In this document: in pieces, positions 3,229-60,706 of the stretch
How the letters are laid out: the number at the start of each line of letters is the position of its first letter
Numbering within the stretch: position 1 is the first letter of the stretch
From: Raja brachyura
Taxonomy: Eukaryota
Direction of reading: 5' to 3'
Length of the DNA stretch: 64,000 nucleotides
Assembly (NCBI GenBank): GCA_963514005.1
Contig: OY740807.1
Location: 22,258,001 to 22,322,000 of the forward strand
Program-made: the position numbers and the translations under genes
The notes under the pieces: model-generated
The model's database searches: none
The model's input: the letters and a program-made list of their open reading frames with translations, nothing else
Told to the model about the DNA's origin: nothing

Positions 3229-4090
3229 TGCAAGCAAGCAAGCAAGTTTGTTTATATAGCACATTTCAGCAACAAGGCAATTCAAAGTGCTTTACACAAA
3301 GCATTAAAAAGAAATCAAAAGCATTTAAAAACAGTCATTAAAAAGAATAGAAAATAAAAAAGCTAAAATAGAATAAGACAAGTATAAAATACACGAATAA
3401 AAGTTACAGTGCAGTGTAAGAAATAAATAATTATTTGATTTAATTAAAAGCAGCGTAAAAGAGAAAAATCTTCAGCCTTGATTTAAAAGAACTGAGAGTT
3501 GGAGCGGACCTGCATTTTTCCAGAAGTTTGTTCCATATATGTGGTGCATAAAAACTAAACGCTACTTCTCCGAGTTTAGTTCTGGGGACAGAAAGCAGAC
3601 CTGTCCCAGGTGACCTCCGAGGTCTGGATGGTTCATAATGTAGCAGAAGATCAGAAATGTATTTTGGCCCTCGACCATTCTGTGCTTTATAAACGAACAT
3701 TAATATTTTGAAATCAATTCTTTGACAGAGTGGAAGCCAGTGCAAAGACCTCAAAACTGGAGTGATGTGATCCACTTTCTTGGTCTTAGAGAGGACTCGA
3801 GCAGCAGCGTTCTCAATCAGCTGCAGCTGTCTAATCGATTTTTTAGGGAGACCTGTGAAGACAGCATTAATCAACTCTATTGAAGATAAATTCATGGACT
3901 AGTTTTTCCAAACCCTGCTGAACCGTAAGTCCTTTAACCCTTGATATATTCTTAAGGTGATAGTCGGTTGACTTTGTAATTGTCTTTAAGTGGAGGTTGA
4001 AATTCAGGTCTGAGTCCATGATTACATGGACCAAGAGCTCTGGCTTTGCCCGTGATTTTTAACATTGCCGATTGAAGCTGAGCACTGACT
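3229..4090 (-). mobile_element. L2-clade LINE 3' end (ORF2 C-terminus, 3'UTR, (TTGC)n tail)
   Basis: ORF 3440-3895 reads LQLIENAAARVL...HITPVLRSLHWLP...RIDFKIL, the classic L2 C-terminus. Upstream is VIMDSDLNF...YHLKNISR, and the tail is gcaagcaagcaagcaag. Confidence 0.92.
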
Positions 4091-6254: not shown

Positions 6255-6447
6255 TGCAAATAAATAGCCAGGATATAAATTATCTTGAAGATCAACACAA
6301 CAGCGGGTAAGGCAGCATCTCTGGAGAAAATGGCCAGGTGACGTTACGGTTTGGGACTCTTCTTCTATCCATTTTCTCCAGAGATGATGCCTTACCCGCT
6401 GTTGTGTTGATCTTCAAGATAATTTATATCCTGGCTATTTATTTGCA
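6255..6447. repeat. 79-bp near-perfect inverted repeat with 35-nt loop
   Basis: 6255-6333 matches the reverse complement of 6369-6447 with one mismatch. Confidence 0.95.
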
Positions 6448-8190: not shown

Positions 8191-9112
8191 TTTATGCAGA
8201 CCGTGACTATGTATTTTAAATACTGTTTCTTGGTACTAAATGCTACGTACTGGATCCATTGTGCTTGTAACCATTTTTTCTGCATCTATCATGGCATGTG
8301 TTCTGACATAAGTCTCTTGAGTTAATTTAATTTAAATCTTGAAAAGAAAACAATTTTATGAATTGATAAATATTACAAGGGCAACCTTAAATGGATTTAA
8401 CTAACACCAGATATCAGATATTACCAATGTGGTTGCACAATTACCATTAGATCCGTAGTGGAGTGTTATGCTGTCTTAAATAATCGTATTAAAGCACTCA
8501 AGGATGCCAAATGGTGTTCTTTGAGGAGATTTTAAAGTTGTGTCAGAAATACATGGATATGCAACACAGACACTATTGGAGGAAGGTCTGAATAAACATT
8601 TGAGTATTTATCAAAATGCCATGGAGGCATTCATGTCTATGTGATCAGAAACTTTCAACATTTGTTCTAAAGCCATAAACTTTAAAATTCTCCTTCAACT
8701 ATGTATTTTAAGCAGTCTCGTATGATTTACCCGTGAAATGTGTCATTTTTCAGACCTAGCCTGGTGAGTAAAGGCTGAGCTGTAAAATGTTGCAGTTTGT
8801 AAGATCTTTTTGATTCACACAAGGAGTGAGAGGGAGCTGGAGGGAGTGGGAGAACTGTAAAGGGAGTAAGAGAGAGAAATGGAGAGAGTGAAAGAGAGTC
8901 CATGGACTTGTTTTTCAAATAATGCATTTTGCACTAATTGTTTTTTCTACAGCTTTTTCCCCATTGTCTTGTAGAATTTATGATTAGTTCATGTATAATT
9001 TATGTTTTTGTATGTCATCTGAGTCTGTGATGCTGCCTTGAGCAAGATTTGCATTGTACCTTTACCTAACTGTACTTGTGCATGGCAACAAACTCAACTT
9101 GACGGCTTCAGT

Positions 9113-9990
9113 GTGGGGAAAGGAGAGAGGGGAAGAGGGAGAAAGGGAGAGGGGTAGGGGAGAGAGGGGAAGGGGGAGAGAGGGGAAGGGGGAGAGAGGG
9201 GAAGGGGGAGAAAGGGAGAGGGGAGAGGGGGATAGCGGAAGGGGGAGAGAGGGAGAGGGGAAGGGGGAGAGGGGAAGGGGGAGAGGGGAAGGGGGAGAGA
9301 GGGGAAGGGGGAGAGAGGGAGAGGGGTAGGGGAGAGAGGGAGAGGGGAAGGGGGAAAGGAGAGAGGGGAAGGGGCAGAGAGGGAGAGGGGAAGGGGGAGA
9401 GGGGAAGGGGGGAAAGGGAGAGGGGAAGGGGGAGAGAGGGAGAGGGGAAGGGGCAGAGAGGGAGAAGGGTAGGGGCAGAGAGGGGAAGAGGGAGAAAGGG
9501 AGGGGGAGAGGGGATAGGGGAAGGGGGAGAGGGGAAGGGGGAGAGAGGGAGAGGGGAAGGGGGAGAGGGGAAGGGGGAGAGAGGGGAAGGGGGAGAGAGG
9601 GGAAGGGGGAGAGAGGGAGAGGGGTAGGGGAGAGAGGGAGAGGGGAAGGGGGAAAGGAGAGAGGGGAAGGGGAGAGGGGAAGGGGGAGAGAGGGAGAGGG
9701 GAAGGGACAGAGAGGGAGAGGGGTAGGGGAGAGAGGGGAAGGGGGGAAAGGGAGGGGAAGGGGGAGAGAGGGAGAGGGGAAGGGGCAGAGAGGGAGAAGG
9801 GTAGGGGCAGAGAGGGGAAGAGGGAGAAAGGGAGAGGGGGAGAGGGGATAGGGGAAGGGGGAGAGGGAGAGGGGAAGGGGGAGAGAGGGAGAGGGGAGAG
9901 GGGAAGGGGGAGAAAGGGAGAGGAGGAAAGGGAGAGAGGGGGGAGGGAGGGAGGGAGGGAGGAAGGGGGGGGGGGCGGAAATGGGGAAAA
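9113..9990 (+). repeat. About 870-bp polypurine (GGGGAAGGGGGAGAGAGGGAGA-like) tract
   Basis: Almost exclusively G/A on +; it explains the Pro/Ser/Leu-rich pseudo-ORFs at 9062-10064. Confidence 0.97.
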
Positions 9991-10784
9991 GGCTGTGTTG
10001 AGATGATGTCTGCATTATGTGCCAGGAAATAGGATGTGATCAAAGAAAACTTTCTAAATTGCATGATGTAAACTAAAGGGGAAGAACAAGAGGCAGTGTT
10101 CCTTTAAGAAGTTGTATGAACTTGCCACTTGACTTTTGCTCTCTTGTATGTGAGTTGTGAGGCTCCACCTACTTTTTATCTTTGTCCTTGTGCTTTGCAA
10201 AGATGGTTTAAGTTTTAATTTACTGTGGAAATCAACTGTTTTGAGTTTTACAGCTATCTGCAAAAGAAGGAAAACACAAGTGTGTATTTTGTGACTGATG
10301 AAGGGTCTCAACCCAAAACGTCACCCATTCCTTCTCTCCAGAGATGCTGCCTGACCCGCTGCATTATTGTCTTACCTCCAGAAGAGGTTAATTTCTCCTC
10401 AATGCCATTCCAGGAATCTGTCTGACGGATTCTATTGCATGTATTCTTCCTGGTGTTGAGGAGAAGAGACCAGAGCTGTGCACAGTATTCCAGGTGTAAT
10501 CTCACCAGAGCCTTAAATGATTACAAAATTCTCTTGCAATGAAGTGTAACATATTGTTAACTTCCAAAACGCTTGCTGTACCTACCTGTACATTATAATT
10601 CAGTGATTTACGAACAATACCCAGGCCCCTCTGAGCAGCAACAGCTTCTAACCTTGAAGAAAAATAATTACATTGCTGTAGTGAACTAGCAGGGAAATAG
10701 CTCTAACTGACCATCCTACCTGTAGGATGGCATGTTAGCCACCAGCTGCTCTCCTACCAGAATCAGCTCTTAATCGTAAAGTTA

Positions 10785-14271: not shown

Positions 14272-14470
14272 TGCAGGAAGGAACTGCAGATGCTGGTTTA
14301 AACCGATGAAAGACACAAAATGACGGAGTAACTCAGGCAGCATCTCTGGAGAGAAGGAATCTTCAGACTGAACTTTGAAGAAGGGCCTCGACCCGAAACA
14401 TCAACCATTCCTTTTCTGCAGAGATGCTGCCTATCTCGCTGAGTTACTCCAGTATTTTGTGTCTATTTTC
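14272..14470. mobile_element. Penelope-derived foldback element
   Basis: Head-to-head arms gagtaactcag...gcagcatctctggagagaaggaat / attcctt...agagatgctgcc...gagttactcc. Confidence 0.75.
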
Positions 14471-24150: not shown

Positions 24151-25419
24151 CCACTAGAAGAAATCCTGAGATAGTGAAATTTACAGTGGTTATCAATGCA
24201 GGTTTTTTTTTAAAATCTCTTACTTCAGTCTCCTTGACAACAGAAGATTTGGGGACAGTGGCAGGATAGGGCCTTCCATCCCAGCATTGGCTAAGGTCTA
24301 AAATAAAGGAAGATAAGCCTGTAAAATTGGAAGGAAAAATACATTAAGAATTCATTGGAGGTTCAAAGCAAAACAATTCTTTTACGCATTCGCTGGAAAT
24401 GGTTGGTTTCAGCAACATTATATTCTGGGCCAGAACTTAACGACTGGTGTATAGATCCAGCAGAGACCTAACCACCCTCATTCTCAGGCTGAACCTTCTC
24501 CCATTCTAGGCCTCAAAACAGGAAGTGGGTTTAGCGCAGTCTGATAATCCTGATTAAAATCAGGTGCGAGTTTCTAAAATCTGTGCCTGGGAAACAGGAT
24601 TTGGTTTTCTTTCCAGCAAGTTCCTCCCTTTGTGTCTACTGATTTTCTGCATCTCTGGCTCACATGTTATCAACAGCAGTTTGATTTAACAAGCATCATT
24701 CAATTAGATACATTTCCCAAGGCTCTTCACTGGTGCGCACTCAAGCCAAAGAAGGGGAGATAAAACAAAGCTTGGAGCAGGTTTACTTCAATTAATGAAA
24801 GTCAAAACACTGCAGATGCTGGAAATCTGAAAAAACCCCATAAAATACTGGACACACAGCAGGCGAGGCAGCACCTGTGGAGAGAGGAGCAGATGCAAAG
24901 AAGGGTTTCATTATTAAATGTTAACATTGCTTCTCTTTCCACAGATAATGCATGATTCACTACAGTTATAGTGCTTTGGTGATTCCGCACCAGGAGCATT
25001 GTATATAATTCTGGTTTCCTTATCTAAAAAAGGATATATTTACCACAGAGGTGGTGCAGTGGAGATTCATCAGAATGGTTCCGGAGATGATTGCTCTGTC
25101 ATATCTGGTCCTGACTCTGCTCGTTACAATGTTGAAAGAGAAGATCTGACTAAAACACAAAAAAAATACTGTGATTTTAGTATAGGATTACCGCAGATTG
25201 GTGTTTGCTGGTTAATGCGGATGTGATGGGCTGAAGCATTGTATTAGTGTTGTGTGGGTTGACAGGTTAGATATCGAGAGAATGTTTCCCTTGGCAGAGG
25301 AGCTGAAAACCAGGGGGTCACTTTCCCCCAAAATGGCTTTGGCCACTTAGGACATGTGAGAAATGTCTTCATCCGAAGGTGGTGGATCTTTGGAATTCTA
25401 TACTCCAAGAGACTATTAT

Positions 25420-26180
25420 CTGAATGGTGGCCGATTAGGAAAAGGGGAGATGTAGCGAGACCTGGGTGTCATGGTACACCAGTCATTGAAAGTAGGCATG
25501 CAGGTGCAGCAGGCAGTGAAGCAAGCGAATGGTATGTTAGCATTCATAGCAAAAGGGTTTTAGTATAGGAGCAGGGAGGTTCTACTGCAGTTGTACAGGG
25601 TCTTGGTGAGACCACACCTGGAGTATTGCGTACAGTTTTGGTCTCCAAATCTGAGGAAAGACATTCTTGCCATAGAGGGAGTACAGAGAAGGTTCACCAG
25701 ACTGATTCCTGGGATGTCAGGACTTTCATATGAAGAAAGACTGGATAGACTCGGCTTGTACTCGCTAGAATTTAGAAGATTGAGGTGGGATCTTATAGAA
25801 ACTTACAAAATTCTTAAGGGTTTGGACAGGCTAGATGCAGGACGATTGTTCCCGATGTTGGGGAAGTCCAGGACAAGGGGTCACAGTTTAAGGATAAGGG
25901 GGAAATCTTTTAGGACCGAGATGAGAAAAACATTTTCACACAGAGAGTGGTGAATCTCTGGAATTCCCTGCCACAGAAGGTAGTTGAGGCCAGTTCATTG
26001 ACTATATTTAAGAGGGAGTTAGATGTGGCCCTTGTGGCTAAAGGGATCAGGGGGTATGGGGAGAAGGCAGGTACAGGGATATTGAGTTGGATGATTAGCC
26101 ATGATCATATTGAATGGCGGTGCAGGCTCGAAGGGCCGAATATGGCCTACTCCTGCACCTATTTTTCATATTTCTATGTA
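25420..26180 (+). mobile_element. Young CR1 LINE 3' end, nested in an older CR1 (about 24975-26340)
   Basis: ORF 25591-25953 reads LVRPHLEYCVQFWSP...IEGVQRRFTRLIPGM...YEERLDRLGLYSLE; CR1 3'UTR and (tttcta)n-like tail. Confidence 0.95.
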
Positions 26181-27929: not shown

Positions 27930-28180
27930 AAAAAATACGACATGGGAACCCTTCATGGGTTTCGGGCCTGCCACTTCTTCACTCGCCTTTGCCTCTGCCT
28001 CTGGCCCTTTTCTATGGGAAGGAATCCTGGCCTCCCACTGGTGACCCCTTCTCCTCTGGGAACCCTCCCTGCTGGCCTTCTACCCTCTCTGGACCTTGTT
28101 ATTTTCAACTGCCGGCATGACATTAACCATCTTGACTTCTCAACTACACTCACCCACTCCAATCCCTCCCCCTCTGAATG
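27930..28180 (+). mobile_element. Penelope-like element ORF fragment
   Basis: GLLPSLDLVIFNCRHDINHLDFSTTLTHSN resembles the fish PLE pre-RT region. Confidence 0.6.
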
Positions 28181-28761
28181 CACAGCTTGGGTATGAGGAA
28201 GGGTCCCGACCCAAAATATCACCTATCCATGTTCTGCAATGAAGACAAAGAAGGCTGTGGAGGCCAAGTCAATGGATATTTTTAAGGCAGTGAGTGATAG
28301 ATTCTTAATTAGTAAGGGGTGTATGGGATAATGGGGAGAAGGTAGGAGAGTGGGGTTGAGAGGGAAAGATAGATTAGCCATGATTGAATGGCAGAGTAGA
28401 CATGAGGGACCAAATGGCTTAATTCTGCTCCTATAACTTATGATCTTGTGAAGTTACTAGACTAAGTGGGACCCGTTGGGTCCCAGCATTACACACGAGG
28501 TCTGGTCCCCCAACTCAATATTCCACCTCTCCACCAATTCCAATATTGGTGGCCAGTGGGGGGGGGGGGGGGCTTTCTGGAGTGCTAGTATGGGTATTGT
28601 GGGCTGAAGGGACTGGTTTCCAGAGGGCTAGGATGGACAATGTGGGCCGAATGGATTCTTGGGCTGGCGGCTCAGTCGTTCAAGCTTGTTGTGCTGGCAG
28701 CTCACTCACTCACGGCTGGTGGGCTGGCAGTTGACTCACGGTTATTCCTTGAAATTCCATT

Positions 28762-28880
28762 TCAAGCAGGGTGCAAGGCCACCAAATTCAAGTGCAGTTT
28801 CTTACCACTTCAAGCAGGGTGCAAGGCCACCAAATTCAAGTGCAGTTTCATACCATCACAAGCAGGGTGCAAGGCCACTA
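28762..28880. repeat. 48-bp minisatellite (about 2.5 copies) inside the Helitron
   Basis: caagcagggtgcaaggccaccaaattcaagtgcagttt repeated. Confidence 0.9.
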
Positions 28881-29075
28881 AAGACAGCGAGTCGTGACCT
28901 CTCCCACACTTCTGGGTTTTATAGTCCCTCCCTCCTCCCACCAGAAGGGGCGTGGCCTTCATGGCATGATTGACAGCAAAGATTGTAGAGGAGCAAGATG
29001 CGCCATTCAGCGAAAAAAACGTAGTATCACATGTGTGATTGTCGACGCCATTTTAGCAGTGTGCCTCAACCAGAG

Positions 29076-29197
29076 ATGGCCTCGACTATGGCGTCTACAT
29101 CTAAATCTTCATCTTACTGCGCGACTATTAATTGCTCTAATGGTCAATGTAGACGACCCGACCTGTCTTTCTTTAGGTTCCCCAATAAAAAAGAAAG
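29076..29197 (+). pseudogene. Transposase exon 1 encoding the N-terminal half of a THAP zinc finger
   Basis: Translates to MASTMASTSKSSSYCATINCSNGQCRRPDLSFFRFPNKKE(R): C-x4-C plus LSFFRFP, ending in a phase-2 donor AG|gtgagg as in THAP genes; downstream exons not seen in this copy. Confidence 0.85.
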
Positions 29198-30060
29198 GTG
29201 AGGAAATATTATTATTTTCTGTCGATATTATTCTGAACTGAAAATTTTATTTTCTGTTCTCCCATCAACGGTCATTGGGAAACTAGGCTCCTCTATAATC
29301 TTTGGTTGGTACATTAGAAAGGTATTAGAATTATTTGTAATAGATCTTTACTTAGCACAATAATAAAATCAATAATTTTAACACTTCTGAAAGTTTTTGG
29401 TTTTGTTCTTGTTAGGCAGGGGTCTCCAAAATATGGCCCAGTGACCACGAGATTTTTCGAGCTCAGATTTGAGTCCGGGAACGCGGAGGCTGTTACCAGT
29501 TACCTGTTACCAGTTATGTCCCTCAAATTGTCCACACAAAATCGTGCCAATGACGATTTATTTATCTATATTACTAAAACTATGATCTTGACCGCTTTCG
29601 ACTTTCTGTTTCATGATTTCCGAGAGAACGCCGCCACATACGGCCGTCATTTTTGGCCACCTCACTCTGTCCCGGGGGGAGGGACTACAATACCCGGAAG
29701 TGTTGTGCCTCACTCAGTCTCTGCAAGAGAGAGGAAGTGAGAGGGTCATGGCTCTCTGAGTGGCGAATAACACTGAACGCACGTCTACTCAACCGTGAGT
29801 CCCCTTGATGTGGTTGTAGAGTGTTTGCCAAATTGTCTTGGCTCTTAAAATCGTTGCAACAGTTTTCGGATGGATAAAGCGAGATGGCGCTGAGTGCCTC
29901 ATTTCAGGTTCGTGGCAAGATGGCGCTGACTGCAGAAGGCACAGAATGAAGACATCGCTGAATAATTCAAGAGAGCTGATTGCTCTGTCAAAGGTTAGTG
30001 TGTTTGTTGGACATTATTTAAAGCACATATTTGCTTCAGCAGCAGCAGCCTCTACAGGAG

Positions 30061-30222
30061 NNNNNNNNNNNNNNNNNNNNNNNNNNNNNNNNNNNNNNNN
30101 NNNNNNNNNNNNNNNNNNNNNNNNNNNNNNNNNNNNNNNNNNNNNNNNNNNNNNNNNNNNNNNNNNNNNNNNNNNNNNNNNNNNNNNNNNNNNNNNNNNN
30201 NNNNNNNNNNNNNNNNNNNNNN
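30061..30222. other. Assembly gap
   Basis: Run of N. Confidence 1.
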
Positions 30223-30589
30223 GCTTCCTTGAATGATGACTTTTGAGATATTATCAGATTATCTTGGTTAAAATTTGACCGCTGAATCTCTCTATTTTTA
30301 AATTCTCTTTTTTTTAATCAACAGCAAAGAGACATAAAGACACAGTGGGCAGCAACAAGAGACACAACAAGAAAGAACTTAATAATTCTCATCTTTTAAA
30401 TTGTTCTTATATTTTAAGAATTATTCACATTTTAAACTTTAATAAATTCTTTTTCCACTTTTCATGCCTGCGTGTTCTTCATCGCAATGGGAACCTAAAG
30501 GGCAGGAATGGATACTCCGTGGGAGAGCCACTAAGAGCAAAGATCCTATAGCGGAGCAAGATGGACCACTCCTGCGAAAAACACGTAGT

Positions 30590-31553
30590 ACTGTTTTTCC
30601 TCACCTCGGTCCTAAATGACCTCCCCCTTATTCTAACACTGTGGCCCCTGGTTCTGGACTCACCCAACATTGGGAACGTTTTTCCTGCATCTAGCTTGTC
30701 CAGTACTTTTATAATTTTATATGTTTCTATAAGATTCCCCCTCATCCTTCTAAACTCCAGTGAATACAAGCCTAGTCTTTTCATTCTTTCCTCATATGAC
30801 AGTCCCGCCATCCCAGGGATCCATCTCGTGAACCTACGCTGCACTGCCTCAATCACAAGGATGTCCTTCCTCAAATTAAGAGATCAAAACAGTACACAAT
30901 ACTCCAGATGTGGTCTCACCAGAGCCCTATACAACTGCAGAAGAACCTCCTATACTGAAATCCTCTTGTTATGAAGGTCAACATTCCATTAACTTTCAAT
31001 CAAATCATCATCAAACAAACTTTATTGTCATTTAGAAATACATCGATATATGCAATTCCAAACGAAATTCTGTTGCATTTGGCTCCCCGTGCAACTGCCT
31101 GCTGTGCCTGCATGCCAACCTTTACAATGACGCCCAGGTCTCGCTGCACCTCCCCCTTGCCTAACCTAACTTCATTGGGATAATAATCTGCCCCCTTGTT
31201 TTTGCCGCCAAAGTGGATAACCTCACATTTATCTATATTACACTGCATCTGCCACGCATCTGGCCTCTCACTCAACCTGTCCAGGTCCCCCTGCAACCTC
31301 CTAACATCCTCTTCACAGTTCACACTGCCACCCAGCTTTGTATCATCCGCAAACATGCTAGTGTTGCTCCTAATTCCCTCTTCCAAATCATTAATATATA
31401 TGGTAAACAGTTGCGGCCCCAACACCGATCCTTATGGCACTCCACTCGCCACTGCCTGCCATTCTGAAAAGGACCCGTTCACTCCTACTCTTTCCTTCCG
31501 GTCTACCAACCAATTTTCTATCCATGTCAACACCCTACCCCCAATACCATGTG
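30590..31553 (-). mobile_element. Young CR1 LINE RT/C-terminal fragment with a short LINE-tail insert at about 30997-31090
   Basis: LGPQLFTIYINDLEEG...FADDTKLGG...LQGDLDRL and VQRRFTRWIPGMAGLSYEER. Confidence 0.95.
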
Positions 31554-31579
31554 CTCAAGATTGACCACTCCTGCGAAAA

Positions 31580-31924
31580 ACAATTGCCAATCGGCAATGT
31601 AAGCATCCTGACTTGTCTTTCTTCAGGTTCCCCATTAAGGAGAAAAGGTAAGAAAACATTTATTATTTCTGTGGCATATTGAAAATTGTATTTAGCTTGT
31701 TCAATCCCTCACTGTAGTTAGATCATTGAGCTCAGATAGTCGAGTCCTCATGGCAACATCCTTGTAAAAATCTTCTCCTCAAGAGCATTTTCTTTCTACC
31801 TCTATTATTTAATGCAGAATAAGAACATATTGACTGCATGATATTTTCTGTAATTTCAGATGTCGTCAGTAGACATGGTCTCCTACACCAAACTGCGGAG
31901 TATTTGTCAAATAACTGCCATCTT
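31580..31924 (+). pseudogene. Decayed THAP exon 1 (to 31646), 213-nt intron, and exon 2 remnant (from 31860)
   Basis: NRQCKHPDLSFFRFP.. ends at AG|gtaaga; acceptor ttttctgtaatttcag is followed by (R)CRQ / RHGLLHQTAEYLSNNCHL, comparable to THAP12-type RCQKW...RRADL.DKT..QL...Y.LC; frameshifted and deleted. Confidence 0.7.
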
Positions 31925-33079
31925 ATGTACATTGTGTGAAATTGTGATTTGTTACCTGCACAAAACAATGCAAATGGCAATTTATTTATTATTGTATCTA
32001 CGTTGAACGTTTTGCTCTATGGTGTAAGAAGGGGTGGGGCTATCATTGTGTTACATATGTTGAATTGTACATCACTTTCACTGGTTAGCTGATATGCTGA
32101 ACACTGCAACCCTGTATATCTCGCGCACAGAATAATGTGAATTATGTAAATCTTACCATGCATGTCAGAAATAAAGTGTTAACCATGTTAATAGGTCTCT
32201 ATTATGATTTATTTAAAATTGAGTGGGTTGGTGCAATATCGGTTCCAGCCGTCAGTGACTGCACTGCTAGCCCACCAGCCGTCAGAGACTGAACTGCCAA
32301 CCCACGAGCCATGAGTAAGTGAACTGCCAGCCCACCAGTTGTAAGTGACTGAACTGCCAGGCCAATAATCCATTCAGTCCACCCTCTCCCCCTTCTCTCT
32401 CACAGAGTCTGTCACCTGTTTTGAGCAGAATATCTGGCAGTTTCTCAGCTGCCAGCCTGTCAGGTAAGAGTGACTGTACTGCCAGGCCTCAGTGACTCAG
32501 TTGCCTGGCCTCAGTGACTGAGCTGCCAGCCCTAGAATCCATTCGAACCACAATGTCCATACTAGCCCTCTGGAAACCAGTCCCTTCGGCACACAAGTCA
32601 ACACCCATACTAGCGCAACAGAAAGCCCCCCCCCCCCACTGGCCAGCAATATTAGAATAGGTGGAGAGGTGGAATATTGCATTGGGTGACCAGCCCTCCC
32701 GTGTGATGCTGGGACACAACGGGTCCCGCTTAGTCTAGTTAATGTATATAAGTTGGAAATGTTGTCCTTTTTTTGAAATATGTTGAATTTGACATCACTT
32801 TTATTGATTAGCTGATATGCAAAGCTCTGCAACCCTGTATATTTTGCGCACAAAATGACGTAAATAAAAAGTGTTTTCCTTGTTTGTGAAGTTCAATTTA
32901 CAATTATTTTAAATTGTGGGGGTTGGTGCAAAATACTGCTGACCCACAAATGTGTCGTTATGAAACATTCACATTTTAAAAATCCACGTCTCTAAAAAAA
33001 GCAAGAAGGTACACATGTTATTTGACCAACTTATCGGCTGAATTTAAATATGTAGGTATGTACCAGAATTTTTGCTCCT

Positions 33080-33391
33080 AATTACCTCTTCAAAATCATT
33101 AATATGTATGGTAAACAGTTGTGCCCCCAACACCGAGCCTTGTGGCAAAAAATTCCAGAAGATTAGTCAAACATGATTTTCCTTTCATAAATCCATACTT
33201 GGACTAATCCTTTTACTGCTATCCAAATGTCCCATTATTGCATTTTTAATAATTGACTCCAGCATCTTTCCCACCACCGAAGCCAGGCTAACTGGTCTGT
33301 AATTCCCTGTTTTCTCTTTCGCTCCTTTCTTGAAAAGTGGGATAACATTAGCTATCCTCCAATCCACAGGAACTGATCCTAAATCTATTGA
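33080..33391 (-). mobile_element. CR1 LINE RT fragment
   Basis: DWRIANVIPLFKKGAKEKTGNYRPVSLASVVGKMLESII. Confidence 0.92.
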
Positions 33392-33629
33392 NNNNNNNNN
33401 NNNNNNNNNNNNNNNNNNNNNNNNNNNNNNNNNNNNNNNNNNNNNNNNNNNNNNNNNNNNNNNNNNNNNNNNNNNNNNNNNNNNNNNNNNNNNNNNNNNN
33501 NNNNNNNNNNNNNNNNNNNNNNNNNNNNNNNNNNNNNNNNNNNNNNNNNNNNNNNNNNNNNNNNNNNNNNNNNNNNNNNNNNNNNNNNNNNNNNNNNNNN
33601 NNNNNNNNNNNNNNNNNNNNNNNNNNNNN
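33392..33629. other. Assembly gap
   Basis: Run of N. Confidence 1.
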
Positions 33630-34455
33630 GTATATATGGTTTATGTACATCATTTGACAAATAGAATAGAGAGTAATAGTGATGCTTTAAATCAAAGTTG
33701 CTTCTGATCCATGAGAAGGAAATGTATTTATCTCTCAAGGGCCTGTCCCACCATGTCCCACCATATATTTATATGAATGTGTGTTTGTATGTGCCTGTAA
33801 TTTTGTGCACAGTGTGTGTTAAAGCAACACAAGGGAAGCTGCACAATACAATGCAAGGGAAACTACGCAAAGGTGGGGGCTGAGGAGGAAAGATGGGAGG
33901 GAAATGGGGGAAATGGGGGAACAGGGGGAAAACATTAAAATTAAATTAACTAAAATATGTGAGGTGATAGATGCGCTATATCAAACACTGTTCCCTACAA
34001 CACTGATTACATCAAGGATGAGCGGATCAAAGGATCTTTGGAGCTGCTATTTTACATGTAAACGTCTATGAATCAGTAAATATTTGACACTAACCCAATG
34101 GCAATTTACATAGCCTGCCATAGACAAACGCATGCAACAAAAGTCCACATCAAAATATAATTTATTCAAAAGACAATTAAACATTCCTGTTTGCAGGCAT
34201 CTCATTTGCAACTGCTATGTAGCTTTGGAGCGGATTACACAGCGGGAGGCACACCGCTAAAATGGCGGCTGTGCCGTTCCGTTACGTACTACACATCAGT
34301 CCATTGAATTTCAGAGGAGTGGCCTATCTTGCTCCTCCAAAATCTTTGATTGACAGGAGAGAGAATCTCAACATTTTTAAAACACTAATAACATTTTTAT
34401 TTTTCACCGACGGGAAACAGGAAGTGGTCAAGATTAGACTTTTAATTATATAGAA

Positions 34456-34870
34456 GGCAAGGCAACTTTAATTAGGCAAGGCAACTTTAATTAGGCAAGG
34501 CAACTTTAATTAGGCAAGGCAATTTTAATTAGGCAACACAGCTTTAGCATTTCCAAACCAAAGGCAACACAGCTTTAGCATTCCAAACCAAAGGCAACAC
34601 GGCTTTAGCATCTCCAAACCAAAGGCAACATGGCTTTAGCATCTCCAAACCAAAGGCCACACAGCTTTAGCATTTCCAAACCAAAGGCAACACAGCTTTA
34701 GTATTTCCAAACCAATGGCAACACAGCTTTAGAGTTTCCAAACCAAAGGCAACACAGCTTTGGCATTTCCAAACAAAAGGCAACACAGCTTTAGCATTTC
34801 CAAACCAAAGGCAACACAGCTTTAGCATTTACAAACCAAAGACAACACAGCTTTAGCATTACCAAACCAT
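34456..34870. repeat. Compound minisatellite in the Helitron: 19-bp unit x4, then about 31-bp unit x11
   Basis: GGCAAGGCAACTTTAATTA x4; GGCAACACAGCTTTAGCATTTCCAAACCAAA x11. Confidence 0.95.
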
Positions 34871-36334
34871 ATTTTCAAACCACATTAACGGCACTGACAG
34901 GTCAGTAAAACCATTCACAGTTTAGTAGACATGTCTTCAGTGTTATTCACAGCTCAGACTGAGAGATGTGACCCACTCGCTCCCCCATCTTGCAGAGACT
35001 GCCTAAGGCACTCAAAACTTCCAGGTTTTATAGTCCCTCCGGATGGGGCTTGGCCTTCAGGAGAGAGAATCTCAACATTTTTTAAACACTAATAACTCTT
35101 TTATTTTTCATCGATGGGAAAAATCCTCTTGTCCTGCGCAGTGAAGGGGGACTCTGAGTAAGATGGCCAAATATCACAGCCGTAAGTGGCAGCGTTTTTT
35201 TCTAAAATCAATATACAGAACAACAGGAAGTGGTCAAGATCAGACTTTTAGTAATATAGATGCCTGACCTGCTGAGTTACTCCAACACTTTGTGTCTTTA
35301 TGGGTTCATCCCCACCAGGAACTGGACTGAAACTGTCCTGTTGTCAGTTGCACTTTTAAGATCTCACTTGTTGCCCAGTGAATATGGTGGCCCTATCTTT
35401 GGACTGCTACGTTCCTTTAGCTAATAGCATTTGACACACAGGCAATTCCAAGTACTTGGCCCGGTGACAATTAAGGTATTTACAATCAATCTAATGATCG
35501 GTGATTGATGTTTTATTGATCAGTGGGAATGAGGCCAACAGGGCAATAGATTGGGTTAGACTTGCTGTATTCTTGCAGATAAAACGTAAGTTAGGAAAGA
35601 TCCATATTGTCACTGGGGCATTGACATGGTTTGGCACTTGGAACCAAAACAGTCTGTTTGGAGTGAATCCAGGTAATAGCCACTGCAGCATTCAATTCCC
35701 ACTGCATTCTGTGTGAATTCTTTCCTCAACACATTGTGTGTGTGAAACTGATTCCCCGGGAAGAACGCAATCCTTCGCAAGGAATGAAGGGACCTGCCAA
35801 GTAAAATAGATTAAGATTTGGTGTCTTAACAAAATCTTTCTCACAAGTCTGCATTTTGGCAAAAGAGCAGAAGGAAGGAACAAACTGGAGCCGAAGGAAC
35901 GAAATAAAGGCAAAGATTGTTCAAAAACAAGATTGTGGGCTTCTTGGTGGTCCCAATGTCAGAACAGGAAGATCTGTTTTAGCCACATCTTTAGTTGTAG
36001 CTGACATTGATGTCCAAATTTAGATGTGAATCATAAATGGAGCAACCACACTTAGCAGAACAGAGCCCCGAAATTCAAACAATGGTTGCAGCAATTCTTA
36101 TGGTCCACAAACCACAGTTGGGATGTAAAGAAAAGTGACTGCAGATGCTGGAATCCTGAGCAAAAAATAAACAGCTGGGGGAACTCAGCGGGTCAGGAAG
36201 CATCGGTGGAGGGAACTGGAGAGACGATGCTTTGGGTCTGAAGAAGGGTCCTGAACAGGAAATGTCATCTGTTCTTCACTCTCCACAGATATGGCCTGAC
36301 CCGCTGAGTTCCTCCAAATTTGCTTTTCGTTCGT

Positions 36335-45244: not shown

Positions 45245-45460
45245 AATCCGGACCGAAGATAGATACAAAATGCTGGAGTAACTCAGCGGGTCAGGCAGCA
45301 TCCATGGAGAAAAGAAATAGGTGACGTTTCATTTGAAGAAGGGTCGCGACCCGAAACATCACCTATTGCATTTCTCCAGAGTTGCTGCTTGACCCACTGA
45401 GTTACTCCAGCATTTCGTGTCTATCTTCAGTGTAAACCACCATCTGCGGCTCCTGCCTGC
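45245..45460. mobile_element. Penelope-derived foldback element with a degenerate hammerhead
   Basis: Inverted arms around tTGAAGAagggtcgcgacccGAAAcATC. Confidence 0.75.
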
Positions 45461-47829: not shown

Positions 47830-48280
47830 CTTTAAACACCTGTGTCTCTGCGGAAAGCGGTAAAGGGTGAGGATGGGAAGATGTGACTGGTGGTGGGATC
47901 ACGTTGGAAGTGACGGAATTGTCAGAGGCTGTTGGGGTGAAAGGGGAACTCTATCCTTGTATAGGAAGGAACTGCAAATGCTGGTTTACACCAAAGATAG
48001 ACACAAATGCTGGAGTAACTCAACGTGTGAACGGGTCATTCTGGAGAAAAGGAATAGGTGACATTTCGGGTCAAGACCCTTCTTCAGAGTCTGACATGTC
48101 ACCTATTCCTTTTCACTTCAGATGCGGCCTGACGTGCTGCTATTCCAGCATTTGTCTACTTTTGTAAATCTATCCTTATTCTGTCGGGGAGGGGGACGGA
48201 AGCGAGAGCAGAACTACAAGACATGACAGGACATGAGGAGACACGGGTGAGGGATCCATCTATGATAACAGGGGGGGAAA
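47830..48280 (-). mobile_element. Penelope-like ORF remnant interrupted by a Penelope-derived foldback element (about 47959-48168)
   Basis: The reverse strand resembles a PLE RT-thumb region (DRVP...HIFPSSPFTAFRRD); TCTATCCTT is duplicated on both sides of the insert. Confidence 0.65.
48056..48090 (-). ncRNA. Minimal type I hammerhead ribozyme motif
   Basis: Minus strand CTGAAGA-a-gggtc(tt)gaccc-GAAA-t-GTC-acc: intact core and perfect stem II. Confidence 0.55.
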
Positions 48281-50685: not shown

Positions 50686-51371
50686 TGCATAAGAATTGCT
50701 GGACAGGAAAGGTTGTGTACATGCCTAGTATGAAAGACAGTTAAATGTCAAGAAATGATTAGAATACAAAGATGAAACAATGTAAATAATGAAACTTTGA
50801 AAATAAAGCAGAAAACACTGGGAGTGCTCAGCGGGTCAAACAGCATCTGTGGTGAGAGGAGTTTTTCTAGTTAAAACTGGATTATTGTAGATTGGGGCTT
50901 GATGGTTGTCATTCACTTACAATGGTGTGCTAAAGGGCTTGTTTCCATATCGTGTGATGCAAGGGAGGGGAGTGATATGAAAATAGGGTAATGGAATGTT
51001 GCTTAGACTGAAGATGGATTTGGGTACTGCTCATCAGTTAGTGCTGGTTCCAGTTTTGTTCTCCCGGTAAATTGTTTGGATTTTGAAATATAGACACAAA
51101 AGCTTGCTGGTATTCTCAGGTAAGATCTAAACAGTGAGGAGGATTGAAAAGTGAATCATGAAGGGTTTGGTGAATAATGTTGCTGAGATATAAATGAACG
51201 GAGGGACGTTGTATTCTAAATTTATGATATAAATATAAAAAGGCCAGTGGAAGTAGGTGTTATAAATTAGAGCTAGCAAACAAGAGTGATGAATTAGTGG
51301 TCAATTTACACAACATATTGTGGGCAGAGTGCTAGATTTGATAAGTATCATAAAAGGGGAACTTTTTTTTA

Positions 51372-51670
51372 TGCCCCTGTCCCACTTAGGAAACCTGAAC
51401 GGAAACCTCTGGAGACTTTGCACCCCACCCAAGGTTTCCGTGCGGTTCCCGGAGGTTCCCGGATGTTTTTGTCCTCCGGCAACCACCTTCAACTAGCATC
51501 GCAACCGGTTTCGACTAAAAAATTACCGGTTTTTAAAACGGAAACCACTGTCAACCATTAGGGAGACTCACAAAAACCTTCGGGAACCTCCGGGAACTGC
51601 ACAGAAACCTTGGGTGGGGTGCAAAGTCTCCAGAGGTTTCCGTTCAGGTTTCCTAAGTGGGACAGGGGCA
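51372..51670. mobile_element. 299-bp PIF/Harbinger MITE with about 90-bp TIRs
   Basis: TGCCCCTGTCCCACTTAGGAAACCTGAACGGAAACCTCTGGAGACTTTGCACCCCACCCAAGGTTTC and its exact reverse complement at the right end; TTA/TAA flanks. Confidence 0.92.
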
Positions 51671-52769
51671 TAAGCAATGGCGTGACGCAATTTCCACAGC
51701 AGCGGAGGATTTAACAGAAGTTTGCAAATTGCAATTCTTTTCTGAAGGAACCGTTGGAAAAGACCATTTGCTCTCGTAGGGATCAAAGACTTATTCAAAA
51801 GAGTAAAATGTTGTAAGAAATGTCTTCACCCAATGACCTGTTGGGTCATTGGCTGCTTTGTGATGAGGTATGGTTTAACCAAACAAATGTTGAGAGAGTA
51901 GAGCTGTGCAGTTAGTATGCACAAACATGTTGGACTGAATCATCTGCTTTTTATCTGAGAGTCTATGATTACTGCGAGCAGAATGACTTGGAGAAATCCT
52001 ATAGATTTCCTCTGCCTCAATATTGTCCTACACTTTGGTTTATACATTTCTCCAGCACGCCCGCATTTCTAGAGTACACAAAATGCTGGAGAAACTCAGC
52101 GAGTGCAGCAGCATCTATGGAGCGAAGGAGCACCTGCATTTTAATATTGGTTCTATTGTTATTTTAGATATAATCATTAGAATCAGTGATCCAAATTAAA
52201 TCCATCCTCTTTGAATTCTCTCTACAAGTCATATTGCAGTTTGCTTTTCAGTCATTGCTAGACTCTCTTCAAATCTGTTAAATCAATTGCCAATTCAGAA
52301 TTCTTCCATACTGAGATTATAACTTATTCACAGACATTTACAAATCAATTCTGTTTACTCGCGGTTAACTCTCCTTTCTATGCAATCTGCAGGGATTTCA
52401 CTGTGATCAATATCTCTTTGTGGATTGTGTAATTCCTACAGTAAACATATTCATCTTGCTGCTCCCATTAATTCAAACATAATGTGTGATTATTAGTATT
52501 GAGTGGTGCTTGAAATGGGGATCAAAGGAAGCAGATTTGGAAAAAAATACAAATAAATGGCTTCCTTTGTAAGCAATGTCCTAACTGCTGACATTTACCA
52601 TAAGCCTGAGTGAAAAGTACTTTAGGTTCGATGGTCACCCTTTAATTTTTATTAGTTAAGGTTATATAAGACTTGTCTCTATGAAACTATTCTGCTCCTG
52701 ACAAGCCTGGTCTATTCAGTCTTGGATATCAACACCACTTGATGTATGCAACCCATGATTACTTGGAAT

Positions 52770-59654: not shown

Positions 59655-60706
59655 ATAGATTAGATTCTTTATTAGATTCTTTATTTGTCATTCAGACCTT
59701 TCGGTCCGAACGAAACTCTGTTTCCCTGCAGTCATACATATAATTAAAAATAAATAAATAAATAAATGACAGAACACACAATAAACACAAATTTAACATC
59801 CACCACAGTGAGTTCACCAAACACCTCCTCACTGTGGTGGAAGGCAAAATCATAAAGTCTGTGTCCCTTCCCGCTTTGTTTCCCTCTGCGCCGAGGTGAC
59901 CCAGGCCTCAGATGCCGCGACCGTACTGGGCGATGGTAAGTCAGTCCCGCGGTGCAACCGAGCTCCACGAATGGGCCGGTTCAACTCCGCGGCCTGGGGG
60001 GTCCATCGAGCCCGTGGTCGGGCCGCTGCAACCGCTCCGGGACAAAGTCGGGTCGCCGCCCCGGGACCGAGTCGGGTTTCCGCCGCCGCTGTCGTCGCCG
60101 CCGCTGCTGGAACCGCTCCGGTAGTCGGGCCGCTGCTGCCGTGGTCGCCGCCGCCGAAACCGCTCCGGGAGTCAGGCCGCTGCTGCCGCGGTCGCCGCTG
60201 CTGAAACCGCTCCGGGAGTCAGGCCGCTGCTGCCGCGGTCGCCGCTGCTGAAACCGCTCCGGGAGTCAGGCCGCTGCTGCCGCGGTCGCCGCTGCTGAAA
60301 CCGCTCCGGGAGTCAGGCCACTGCTGCCGCGGTCGCCGCTGCTGAAACCGCTCCGGGAGTCAGGCCGCTGCTGCCGCGGTCGCCGCTGCTGAAACCGCTC
60401 CGGGAGTCAGGCCGCTGCTGCTGCCGCCGCCGCCGCTGCTGCCGCCGCCGCCGCTGCTGCTGGAACCGCTCCGGGCCCGAGGCCGCCAGCTCCGCCATTA
60501 GGCCTCGGCGCAGACAGAGACGGGGAACACGACATAAAGTCGCACCCCCCCCCCCCAGAAGGAAGAGACCCGGACATGTTACTCCCCCCCACCCACATAC
60601 ACAATCCAACAAAACTTACGAACCCAACCAAAAAACAGGACATAAAAATAAAATAACAGACAGACTGCAGGTGGGCCGCAGCTGTTAACCCAGCGCCGCC
60701 ATCTTG
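59655..60706 (-). mobile_element. GC-rich SINE-like non-autonomous retroelement with internal minisatellite
   Basis: Minus 5' end caagatggcggcgctggg...; LINE-like 3' tail (aataaagaatct)n; shares its 3' motif with 16460 and 42012. Confidence 0.65.
60128..60409. repeat. 47-bp CpG-rich minisatellite, 6 copies
   Basis: GGCCGCTGCTGCCGCGGTCGCCGCTGCTGAAACCGCTCCGGGAGTCA at 60128, 60175, 60222, 60269, 60316 and 60363. Confidence 0.95.

What the first reader, a model, noticed from the sequence alone, without database searches (positions are those of the whole stretch)
28190..35300. Multi-level nested transposon stack
Reconstructed from termini. A Penelope-derived element starts at 28190-28238 and resumes at 35261, broken by a CR1 3' end plus a minus-strand Helitron (28457-35260). 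Nested in order are the THAP transposon with its 8-bp TSD (28977-34348), a plus-strand Helitron of the same family (29565-32738), a second THAP element (30538-32236), a CR1 (30590-31553) and a short LINE tail (about 30997-31090). Removing 28977-34348 restores the Helitron text ggccttcatggcatgATTGACAGgagagagaatctc, paralleled at 35050-35075. The Helitron/THAP/Helitron/THAP alternation suggests overlapping activity and possibly mutual targeting or Helitron capture.
Basis: partly seen in the sequence, partly recalled or inferred. Interest (0 to 1): 0.7.

Follow-up and report, generated by a model that had tools for sequence, protein, structure and literature searches.

The report
Deep stack of nested transposons
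About 7 kb of jumping-gene remnants sit one inside another in the genome of what looks like a skate; the stack is real and unusually deep, but it is made of known element types and does not show that they target each other.

Summary
The nest is real, with corrections. Confirmed: a Penelope-like repeat split by a CR1 3' end; a Helitron at an A|T site; a THAP element (A) with 32-bp inverted ends and a perfect 8-bp target duplication; a second Helitron whose two junctions map to adjacent bases of the THAP family. These matches span both N-gaps, so a mis-join is unlikely. Relatives of the THAP exon carry P-element transposase domains, so A is a non-autonomous P-superfamily element. Corrections: the outer Helitron has two 5' ends; the inner THAP piece (B) has one terminus and no target duplication; the inner CR1 is cut at both ends and flanked by a 27-bp repeat; 720 bp of unassigned multicopy DNA and a further CR1 were missed. 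Public contigs show family-level empty sites for the Penelope-like repeat and for A, but no listed piece spans the stack. Reciprocal nesting supports overlapping or recurrent activity of Helitrons and P-like elements. Mutual targeting is unsupported from one locus. Whether B inserted here or came as Helitron cargo is open (about 50 versus 35 percent). Low interest.

The parts
28190..28238 (+). Left half of a Penelope-like short repeat (may extend further left)
   Evidence: Aligns with other window copies; contigs join 28232-28235 to 35261 in all 4 runs
28239..28456 (+). CR1-type 3' end; homology starts near 28249, about 10 bp of filler before it
   Evidence: 77-81% to two other window copies; loose ends at 28249. 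The CR1 name for this non-coding end is recalled
28457..28976 (-). Outer Helitron unit H1a, 3' part: hairpin, CTAG end, 30-bp and 48-bp repeats
   Evidence: hairpin -8.2 kcal/mol, 10 nt from the end
28969..28976 (+). Left copy of the 8-bp target duplication of element A
28977..29564 (+). P-superfamily element A, left part; inverted repeat 28977-29008; THAP exon 1 at 29076-29197; 29415-29530 aligns poorly with B
29287..29304 (-). Internal 18-bp copy of the P-type terminal motif
29565..29815 (+). Inner Helitron H2, conserved 5' part
   Evidence: About 81% ungapped identity to H1b 5' part; homology ends at the same motif in both
29816..30537 (.). Segment X: unassigned multicopy DNA, holds N-gap 30061-30222
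   Evidence: No match elsewhere in window; covered by multicopy contigs; no THAP profile hit
30538..30591 (+). P-superfamily fragment B, left terminus
30592..31555 (-). CR1-type LINE fragment, cut at both ends, flanked by a 27-bp direct repeat of B
   Evidence: RVT_1 E 2.6e-7; 80% to window copy 25410-25932; repeat
30998..31091 (-). 94-bp retroposon-like tail inside the CR1; no target duplication, family not identified
   Evidence: CR1 alignment closes when it is removed; loose ends at 30997 continue as CR1 in 4 of 4 runs
31556..32239 (+). Fragment B, rest: part of THAP exon 1, intron, decayed exon 2; about 115 bp missing against A; no right terminus
   Evidence: 76% ungapped identity to A; tblastn and profile hits
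32240..32738 (+). Inner Helitron H2, 3' part: 30-bp repeats, hairpin-like palindrome, CTAG
   Evidence: 84-86% to H1a 3' part
32739..33071 (+). Element A resumes
   Evidence: Colinear with B across the H2 site
33072..33391 (-). Further CR1-type fragment, internally deleted, running into N-gap 33392-33629
   Evidence: 91% to inner CR1 over 76 bp; RVT_1 E 0.0014, below the curated cut-off
33630..34348 (+). Element A, right part; inverted repeat 34317-34348
   Evidence: I13, I21
34349..34454 (-). Right target duplication (34349-34356) and 5' part of H1a with its own TC terminus at 34454
   Evidence: (D13, D20)
34455..35260 (-). Helitron unit H1b: 5' terminus at 35260, 31-bp x11 and 19-bp x4.3 repeats, no 3' CTRR or hairpin of its own
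35261..35299 (+). Right half of the Penelope-like repeat

Best explanation
A genuine stack built by ordinary transposition in a repeat-rich cartilaginous-fish genome. Shown: a CR1 end split a Penelope-like repeat with a 7-bp loss; a Helitron sits at an A|T site at the CR1 tail; a non-autonomous P-superfamily element (A) cut into that Helitron with an 8-bp duplication; a second Helitron (H2) sits at an A|T site in the AT-rich interior of A; CR1 pieces and a short tail lie further in. Inferred: the outer Helitron is a two-headed composite (end bypass, or a 3'-truncated copy inserted at the A|T formed by the first copy's 5' end); fragment B is a second P-like element that inserted into the variable middle (X) of H2 and then lost its right end and target duplication by a one-sided deletion; its doubly cut CR1, 27-bp repeat and 115-bp loss look like faulty repair of a break. 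No targeting between the families is needed.
For: 8 of 8 target duplication and 32-bp inverted ends for A. The 25 bases left and right of H2 map to adjacent positions of B, 31964-31988 and 31989 onward, 19/25 and 18/25 identical against 12/25 for the next best place; this links the contigs across gap 1, and the duplication links them across both gaps. Contigs from 4 of 4 runs show the repeat without its insert (28235>35261, 29-33 contigs a run) and the Helitron without A (28966>34347, 10 letters fitting both sides, 2-13 contigs a run). In 3 of 4 runs summed depth in X is about 5-6 times that at B's left end, so most X-bearing copies seem to lack B. 15 of 25 scanned relatives hit P-element transposase domains. 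AT-rich target preference and end bypass are shown for Helitrons in PMC4778049 (passages); compound Helitrons in PMC4224331 (passages).
Against: B has no right end and no target duplication, so its insertion here is not shown. Under uniform insertion a P-in-Helitron-in-P-in-Helitron stack is expected 3e-10 to 7e-4 times a genome (crude inputs), so clustering, cargo or post-hoc choice must be invoked. In run X2 depth rises together on both sides of B's left end (50x and 120x over X16, against about 1x for background), which hints at a linked unit. No listed contig piece spans the stack.
Confidence: 0.52

Rival explanations
1. The stack is real, but the inner filler (X, B, perhaps its CR1) arrived as cargo of H2: captured by end bypass or inserted into a master copy elsewhere and then copied here. 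A may likewise have moved with H2 inside it. The nesting order is then not the time order at this locus.
For: B is one-ended without a target duplication. The filler starts where H1b also leaves the conserved 5' part and ends where the 30-bp repeats begin, with GGTT near both joints. X and B depths rise together in X2. One joint links 31862 to 30327 in X19, side length not given (table 5c). It eases the low uniform-insertion expectation. Helitrons and hAT elements carrying other transposons are described in PMC3014272 and PMC4224331 (passages).
Against: Depth at 30518 is 4.8-6.5 times that at 30592 in X16, X19 and X20. No contig crossing 30537|30538 was among the rows shown. Summed depth is not a copy number.
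Confidence: 0.33
2. The region is a mis-join or collapse of separate repeat loci across the two N-gaps.
For: Two gaps. Run X16 matches the flanks with 0 differences over 2084 bases, yet its implied share of words in the stack (0.36) is no higher than in diverged runs (0.29-0.35).
Against: The 8-bp duplication and the base-exact H2 site both pair sequences on different sides of the gaps. A join of sister copies of one amplified composite would keep the same structure. Contigs drop private variants in repeats, so the low share is expected either way.
Confidence: 0.08
3. These Helitrons and P-like elements target each other, by sequence or through a shared chromatin factor.
For: The alternation itself, and its low expectation under uniform insertion.
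Against: One locus, chosen after the fact among many possible family pairs; the fourth layer is not shown to be an insertion; the two P landing sites share no 8-mer; AT richness explains part of the Helitron choice.
Confidence: 0.07

Closest known systems
P-element superfamily non-autonomous elements (Anopheles P and P-MITEs, PMC1562414; zebrafish Pdre, PMC7776569, 10.1101/2024.03.22.586318)
   Same: N-terminal THAP exon, terminal inverted repeats of about 30 bp as in Anopheles (27-31 bp), 8-bp target duplication, internal deletion
   Different: Termini differ from the zebrafish Pdre2 13-bp repeat; ends imperfect (84%); no catalytic core seen here; carries a Helitron and CR1 pieces
Non-autonomous Helitrons of vertebrates (Helibat/Helraiser, PMC4778049, PMC4224331; Anolis Helitron-2N3, PMC3014272)
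   Same: 5'-TC, CTAG-3', hairpin about 10 nt from the end, A|T insertion, variable middle with repeats or foreign DNA, compound form with two 5' ends
   Different: No RepHel coding seen; amplification of the cargo-bearing form not shown
Anolis hobo_AC elements with nested transposons (PMC3014272)
   Same: A cut-and-paste element holding other transposons inside intact ends
   Different: There the nested patterns recur among copies; here recurrence is untested, and the carrier is P-like, not hAT
Penelope-like element derivatives with minimal hammerhead motifs (PMC6155905)
   Same: 5 of 22 window hits of the outer repeat show a hammerhead-like core spacing; some copies form palindromes
   Different: No RT or GIY-YIG coding tested; no Rfam hammerhead hit

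Membership tests
P superfamily (element A) | 8-bp target site duplication | tested here: met
   8 of 8 at 28969-28976 and 34349-34356; empty form in 4 of 4 runs
P superfamily (element A) | Terminal inverted repeats | tested here: met
   32 bp, 84% complementary
P superfamily (element A) | THAP domain at the N-terminus | tested here: met
   Exon 1: Pfam THAP E 0.016, below cut-off because it is half a domain; 41.4 bits with a profile of 104 relatives; 86% to P0002, full THAP E 1e-17
P superfamily (element A) | P-type transposase core (HTH, split RNase H, GTP-binding domain) | tested here: inconclusive
   Not found in the window with 152 proteins as tblastn queries; present in relatives, 15 of 25 scanned, none with a hAT domain. 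Fits an internally deleted copy; gap 2 is unread
P superfamily (fragment B as a complete insertion) | Two termini and a target duplication | tested here: not met
   Left end only; no second copy of the 8-bp left flank in 28000-35400. Family origin shown by 76% identity to A
Helitron (H1a, H2) | 5'-TC and CTRR-3' termini, insertion between A and T, no target duplication | tested here: met
   For the outer element the A|T pair uses the 35260 terminus; the 34454 terminus follows a T
Helitron (H1a, H2) | Hairpin near the 3' end | tested here: inconclusive
   H1a: 8-bp stem, -8.2 kcal/mol, 10 nt from the end. H2: one change in the stem, another fold predicted, -6.3
Helitron (H1b as a complete element) | Own 3' CTRR and hairpin | tested here: not met
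   Ends in 19-bp repeats, -1.6 kcal/mol
Helitron | RepHel coding partner | not tested
   No whole genome held
CR1-type LINE (30592-31555, 33072-33391) | Reverse transcriptase of non-LTR type | tested here: met
   RVT_1 E 2.6e-7 and 0.0014. Assignment to CR1 rather than another clade is recalled, no tree was built
Penelope-like derivative (outer repeat) | Minimal hammerhead motif; RT plus GIY-YIG parent | tested here: inconclusive
   Core spacing in 5 of 22 hits, 0 exact consensus matches, 0 hammerhead families among 4 weak Rfam matches; parent not tested
Helitron capture of B | The same cargo with the same junctions in copies at other loci | not testable with these tools
   No genome; no skate DNA found in the contig collections; contig tables cut to the best rows

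The most novel reading that the evidence does not exclude
Two unrelated DNA-transposon classes carry each other in skates: a Helitron subfamily amplified a P-element fragment as cargo, and a P-like element with intact ends moved with that Helitron inside it, so that multi-layer composites spread as units and may favour landing in one another.
Probability: 0.12. Interest if true: 0.55.

Novelty: new member of a known kind. Interest (0 to 1): 0.22.

Why it matters
As it stands it is a well-resolved example for curating skate repeat libraries and for ordering the activity of Helitron, P-like, CR1 and Penelope-like families. It also documents recently mobile P-superfamily elements in a cartilaginous fish; my searches for Helitron with Amblyraja (0 papers) and for nested Helitrons in skates (1 unrelated paper) found no description, but repeat databases were not searchable. 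If composites spread as units, nesting-based dating of transposons would be biased, and Helitrons would be a route for spreading P-element ends and THAP exons.

Tried and rejected
Whole genome: none held. Scans for the P-type end or the Helitron 3' end in viral, metagenome and prokaryote contigs: 0 matches in 5 of 5 scans; the patterns fit B's end, not A's. A related-locus scan gave 1 weak 30-residue hit, L001, taken as chance. Locus-level support from reads: no listed piece spans the stack; the 4 listed X16 pieces inside it carry 14-17 differences each, and the implied word share in the stack is flat across runs (0.29-0.36); contigs lose private variants in repeats and the tables were cut, so this proves nothing either way. 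X16 may be the source of the window and is not independent. Segment X as a third THAP gene, suggested by an FRFP-like reading on the minus strand: rejected, no profile hit. B as a local duplicate of A: rejected, 76% identity with many gaps. The motif at 29287-29304 as the end of a small nested element: no matching target duplication. hAT origin suggested by the name '52 kDa repressor-like': rejected, no hAT domain in 25 of 25 scanned relatives. Rfam: 4 weak microRNA matches, all far below gathering score. Earlier findings of the scan: 0 in 3 look-ups.
Full report
Context. The window is repeat-rich eukaryotic DNA (43.8% GC; two N-gaps, 30061-30222 and 33392-33629). The closest protein relatives of its THAP exon are annotated in two skates, so the host is most likely a skate or close relative (inference). 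No whole genome is held.

Outer layers. The halves at 28190-28238 and 35261-35299 align as one repeat with 7 bp lost at the break, against 7 other window copies. Contigs of 4 of 4 runs join 28235 to 35261 (29-33 contigs a run), and loose ends at 35261 supply the missing letters; these are family copies, not the orthologous empty site. 5 of 22 window hits of this repeat have a hammerhead-like core spacing, in line with Penelope-like elements (PMC6155905, passages), but the exact consensus pattern and Rfam found none, so 'Penelope-derived' is plausible and unproven. A CR1-type 3' end follows, with homology from about 28249. The Helitron ends are CTAG at 28457 and TC at 35260, between A and T, with a hairpin 10 nt from the 3' end. 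The outer element is thus H1b (34455-35260, 5' part and minisatellites, no 3' end of its own) joined to H1a (a short complete unit). Single-headed forms exist in the contigs (joints 28902/28904>34980 and 28973/28975>35058/35061). End bypass and truncated 3' ends are shown for Helitrons (PMC4778049, passages) and compound elements are described in bats (PMC4224331, passages).

Element A. It has 32-bp inverted ends (84%), subterminal inverted motifs and a perfect 8-bp duplication. The empty Helitron form appears in 4 of 4 runs (28966>34347, 2-13 contigs). Exon 1 is an open 41-codon THAP half, 86% identical to a 209-residue THAP protein, P0002. P0002 found 1699 relatives, 150 listed. I scanned 25 of these (the best 13, one more, and 11 long ones): 15 hit P-element transposase domains, 9 with the RNase H N-terminal domain above cut-off, none a hAT domain. 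With the features given for P elements in PMC1562414, PMC7776569 and 10.1101/2024.03.22.586318 (passages), A is a non-autonomous P-superfamily element. No catalytic core is seen in the window; gap 2 is unread.

Inner Helitron H2. Termini at 29565 and 32738, between A and T. The 25 bases on each side map to adjacent positions in the related fragment B (19/25 and 18/25; next best 12/25). So H2 is a clean insertion into P-family DNA, and the contigs on either side of gap 1 belong to one event. The 60 bases around the site are 70% AT (window 56%). H2 and H1 share termini (27/30 and 30/32) and are 78-86% alike in their end regions: one family.

The filler in H2. Helitron homology stops at about 29815 and resumes at about 32240. 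Between lie X (29816-30537, unassigned, multicopy, no THAP hit) and B. B is 76% identical to A, so it is another subfamily. It has a left end only and no target duplication. Its CR1 is cut at both ends and flanked by a 27-bp repeat of B's own start, and about 115 bp present in A are missing after it. This looks like faulty break repair; interrupted gap repair as the source of deleted copies is stated in PMC3014272 (passages), while one-sided deletions at P elements are recalled, not read. The 94-bp tail closes out of the CR1 without a duplication. A further CR1 piece (33072-33391) runs into gap 2.

Insertion or cargo. For insertion here: depth in X is 4.8-6.5 times that at B's end in 3 of 4 runs. 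For cargo: no right end, no duplication, filler limits at the family's variable region, a joint rise of X-right and B-left in X2 (50x and 120x over X16; background about 1x), and one joint 31862>30327 of unknown side length. These depths are sums over contigs, not copy numbers, and the places are those the tool chose to show (24 stack places of a table with 626 rows hidden). The question is open: 0.52 against 0.33.

Assembly. The duplication of A pairs the first and third contigs and the H2 site pairs the first and second, so a random mis-join is unlikely. Reads do not confirm the locus: X16 matches the flanks with 0 differences in 4 pieces (2084 bases) but its other 4 listed pieces, inside the stack, are different copies, and no listed piece spans the stack. 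This is expected when contigs drop private variants, so it is neutral. Mis-join: 0.08.

Targeting. With rough copy numbers taken from summed depth and an assumed 2.5-Gb genome, uniform insertion predicts 3e-10 to 7e-4 such four-layer alternations. That is low, but the locus was picked after the fact, repeats cluster, cargo removes one step, and the fourth layer is unproven. Reciprocal nesting does show overlapping or recurrent activity. It does not show targeting (0.07).

Literature. Nine searches; seven papers read as keyword passages only; the rest seen as listings; no supplements opened. Repbase and Dfam could not be searched, so these families may already be catalogued.

Verdict. A real, unusually deep nest of known element types, with a corrected map. 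New member of a known kind; interest 0.22.

Noticed in passing
P0002, P0003, P0007 against P0005: The skate P-like THAP proteins are 65-68% identical over 189-246 residues, linker included, to a protein annotated in the priapulid worm Priapulus caudatus; hagfish and moray eel proteins fall in the same group (support 93/92). Candidate horizontal transfer among marine animals; not tested at DNA level.
   Followed up: partly
P0003: A Leucoraja erinacea gene model fuses about 250 residues of this P-like protein (THAP) to a B-box and coiled-coil TRIM protein. A cluster member, P0154, has the TRIM part with a different N-terminus, so the fusion may be exonisation or a model artefact.
   Followed up: partly
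window 29287-29304 and 34248: Internal P-type end motif in A; contigs in 4 of 4 runs join 29304 to 34248 on opposite strands (1-5 contigs), hinting at P-in-P composites elsewhere.
   Followed up: partly
window 29415-29530: Part of A that replaces THAP exon 2, with a 7-bp tandem repeat; multicopy; origin unknown.
   Followed up: partly
window 30575-30600: The B|CR1 junction forms a short palindrome (8-bp arms, one mismatch), which may mark a fold-back or microhomology join.
   Followed up: no
window 6255-6447, 14311-14464, 45252-45431, 47985-48168, 51369-51673: Palindromic repeats of 150-300 bp; those at 14311, 45252 and 47985 belong to the same short-repeat family as the outer layer.
   Followed up: no
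window 3443-3898, minus strand: 152-codon open frame that reads like the C-terminus of an L2-type LINE protein (resemblance recalled, not searched).
   Followed up: no
window 9100-10040 and 60010-60490: Long GA-rich simple repeat and a tandem array.
   Followed up: no
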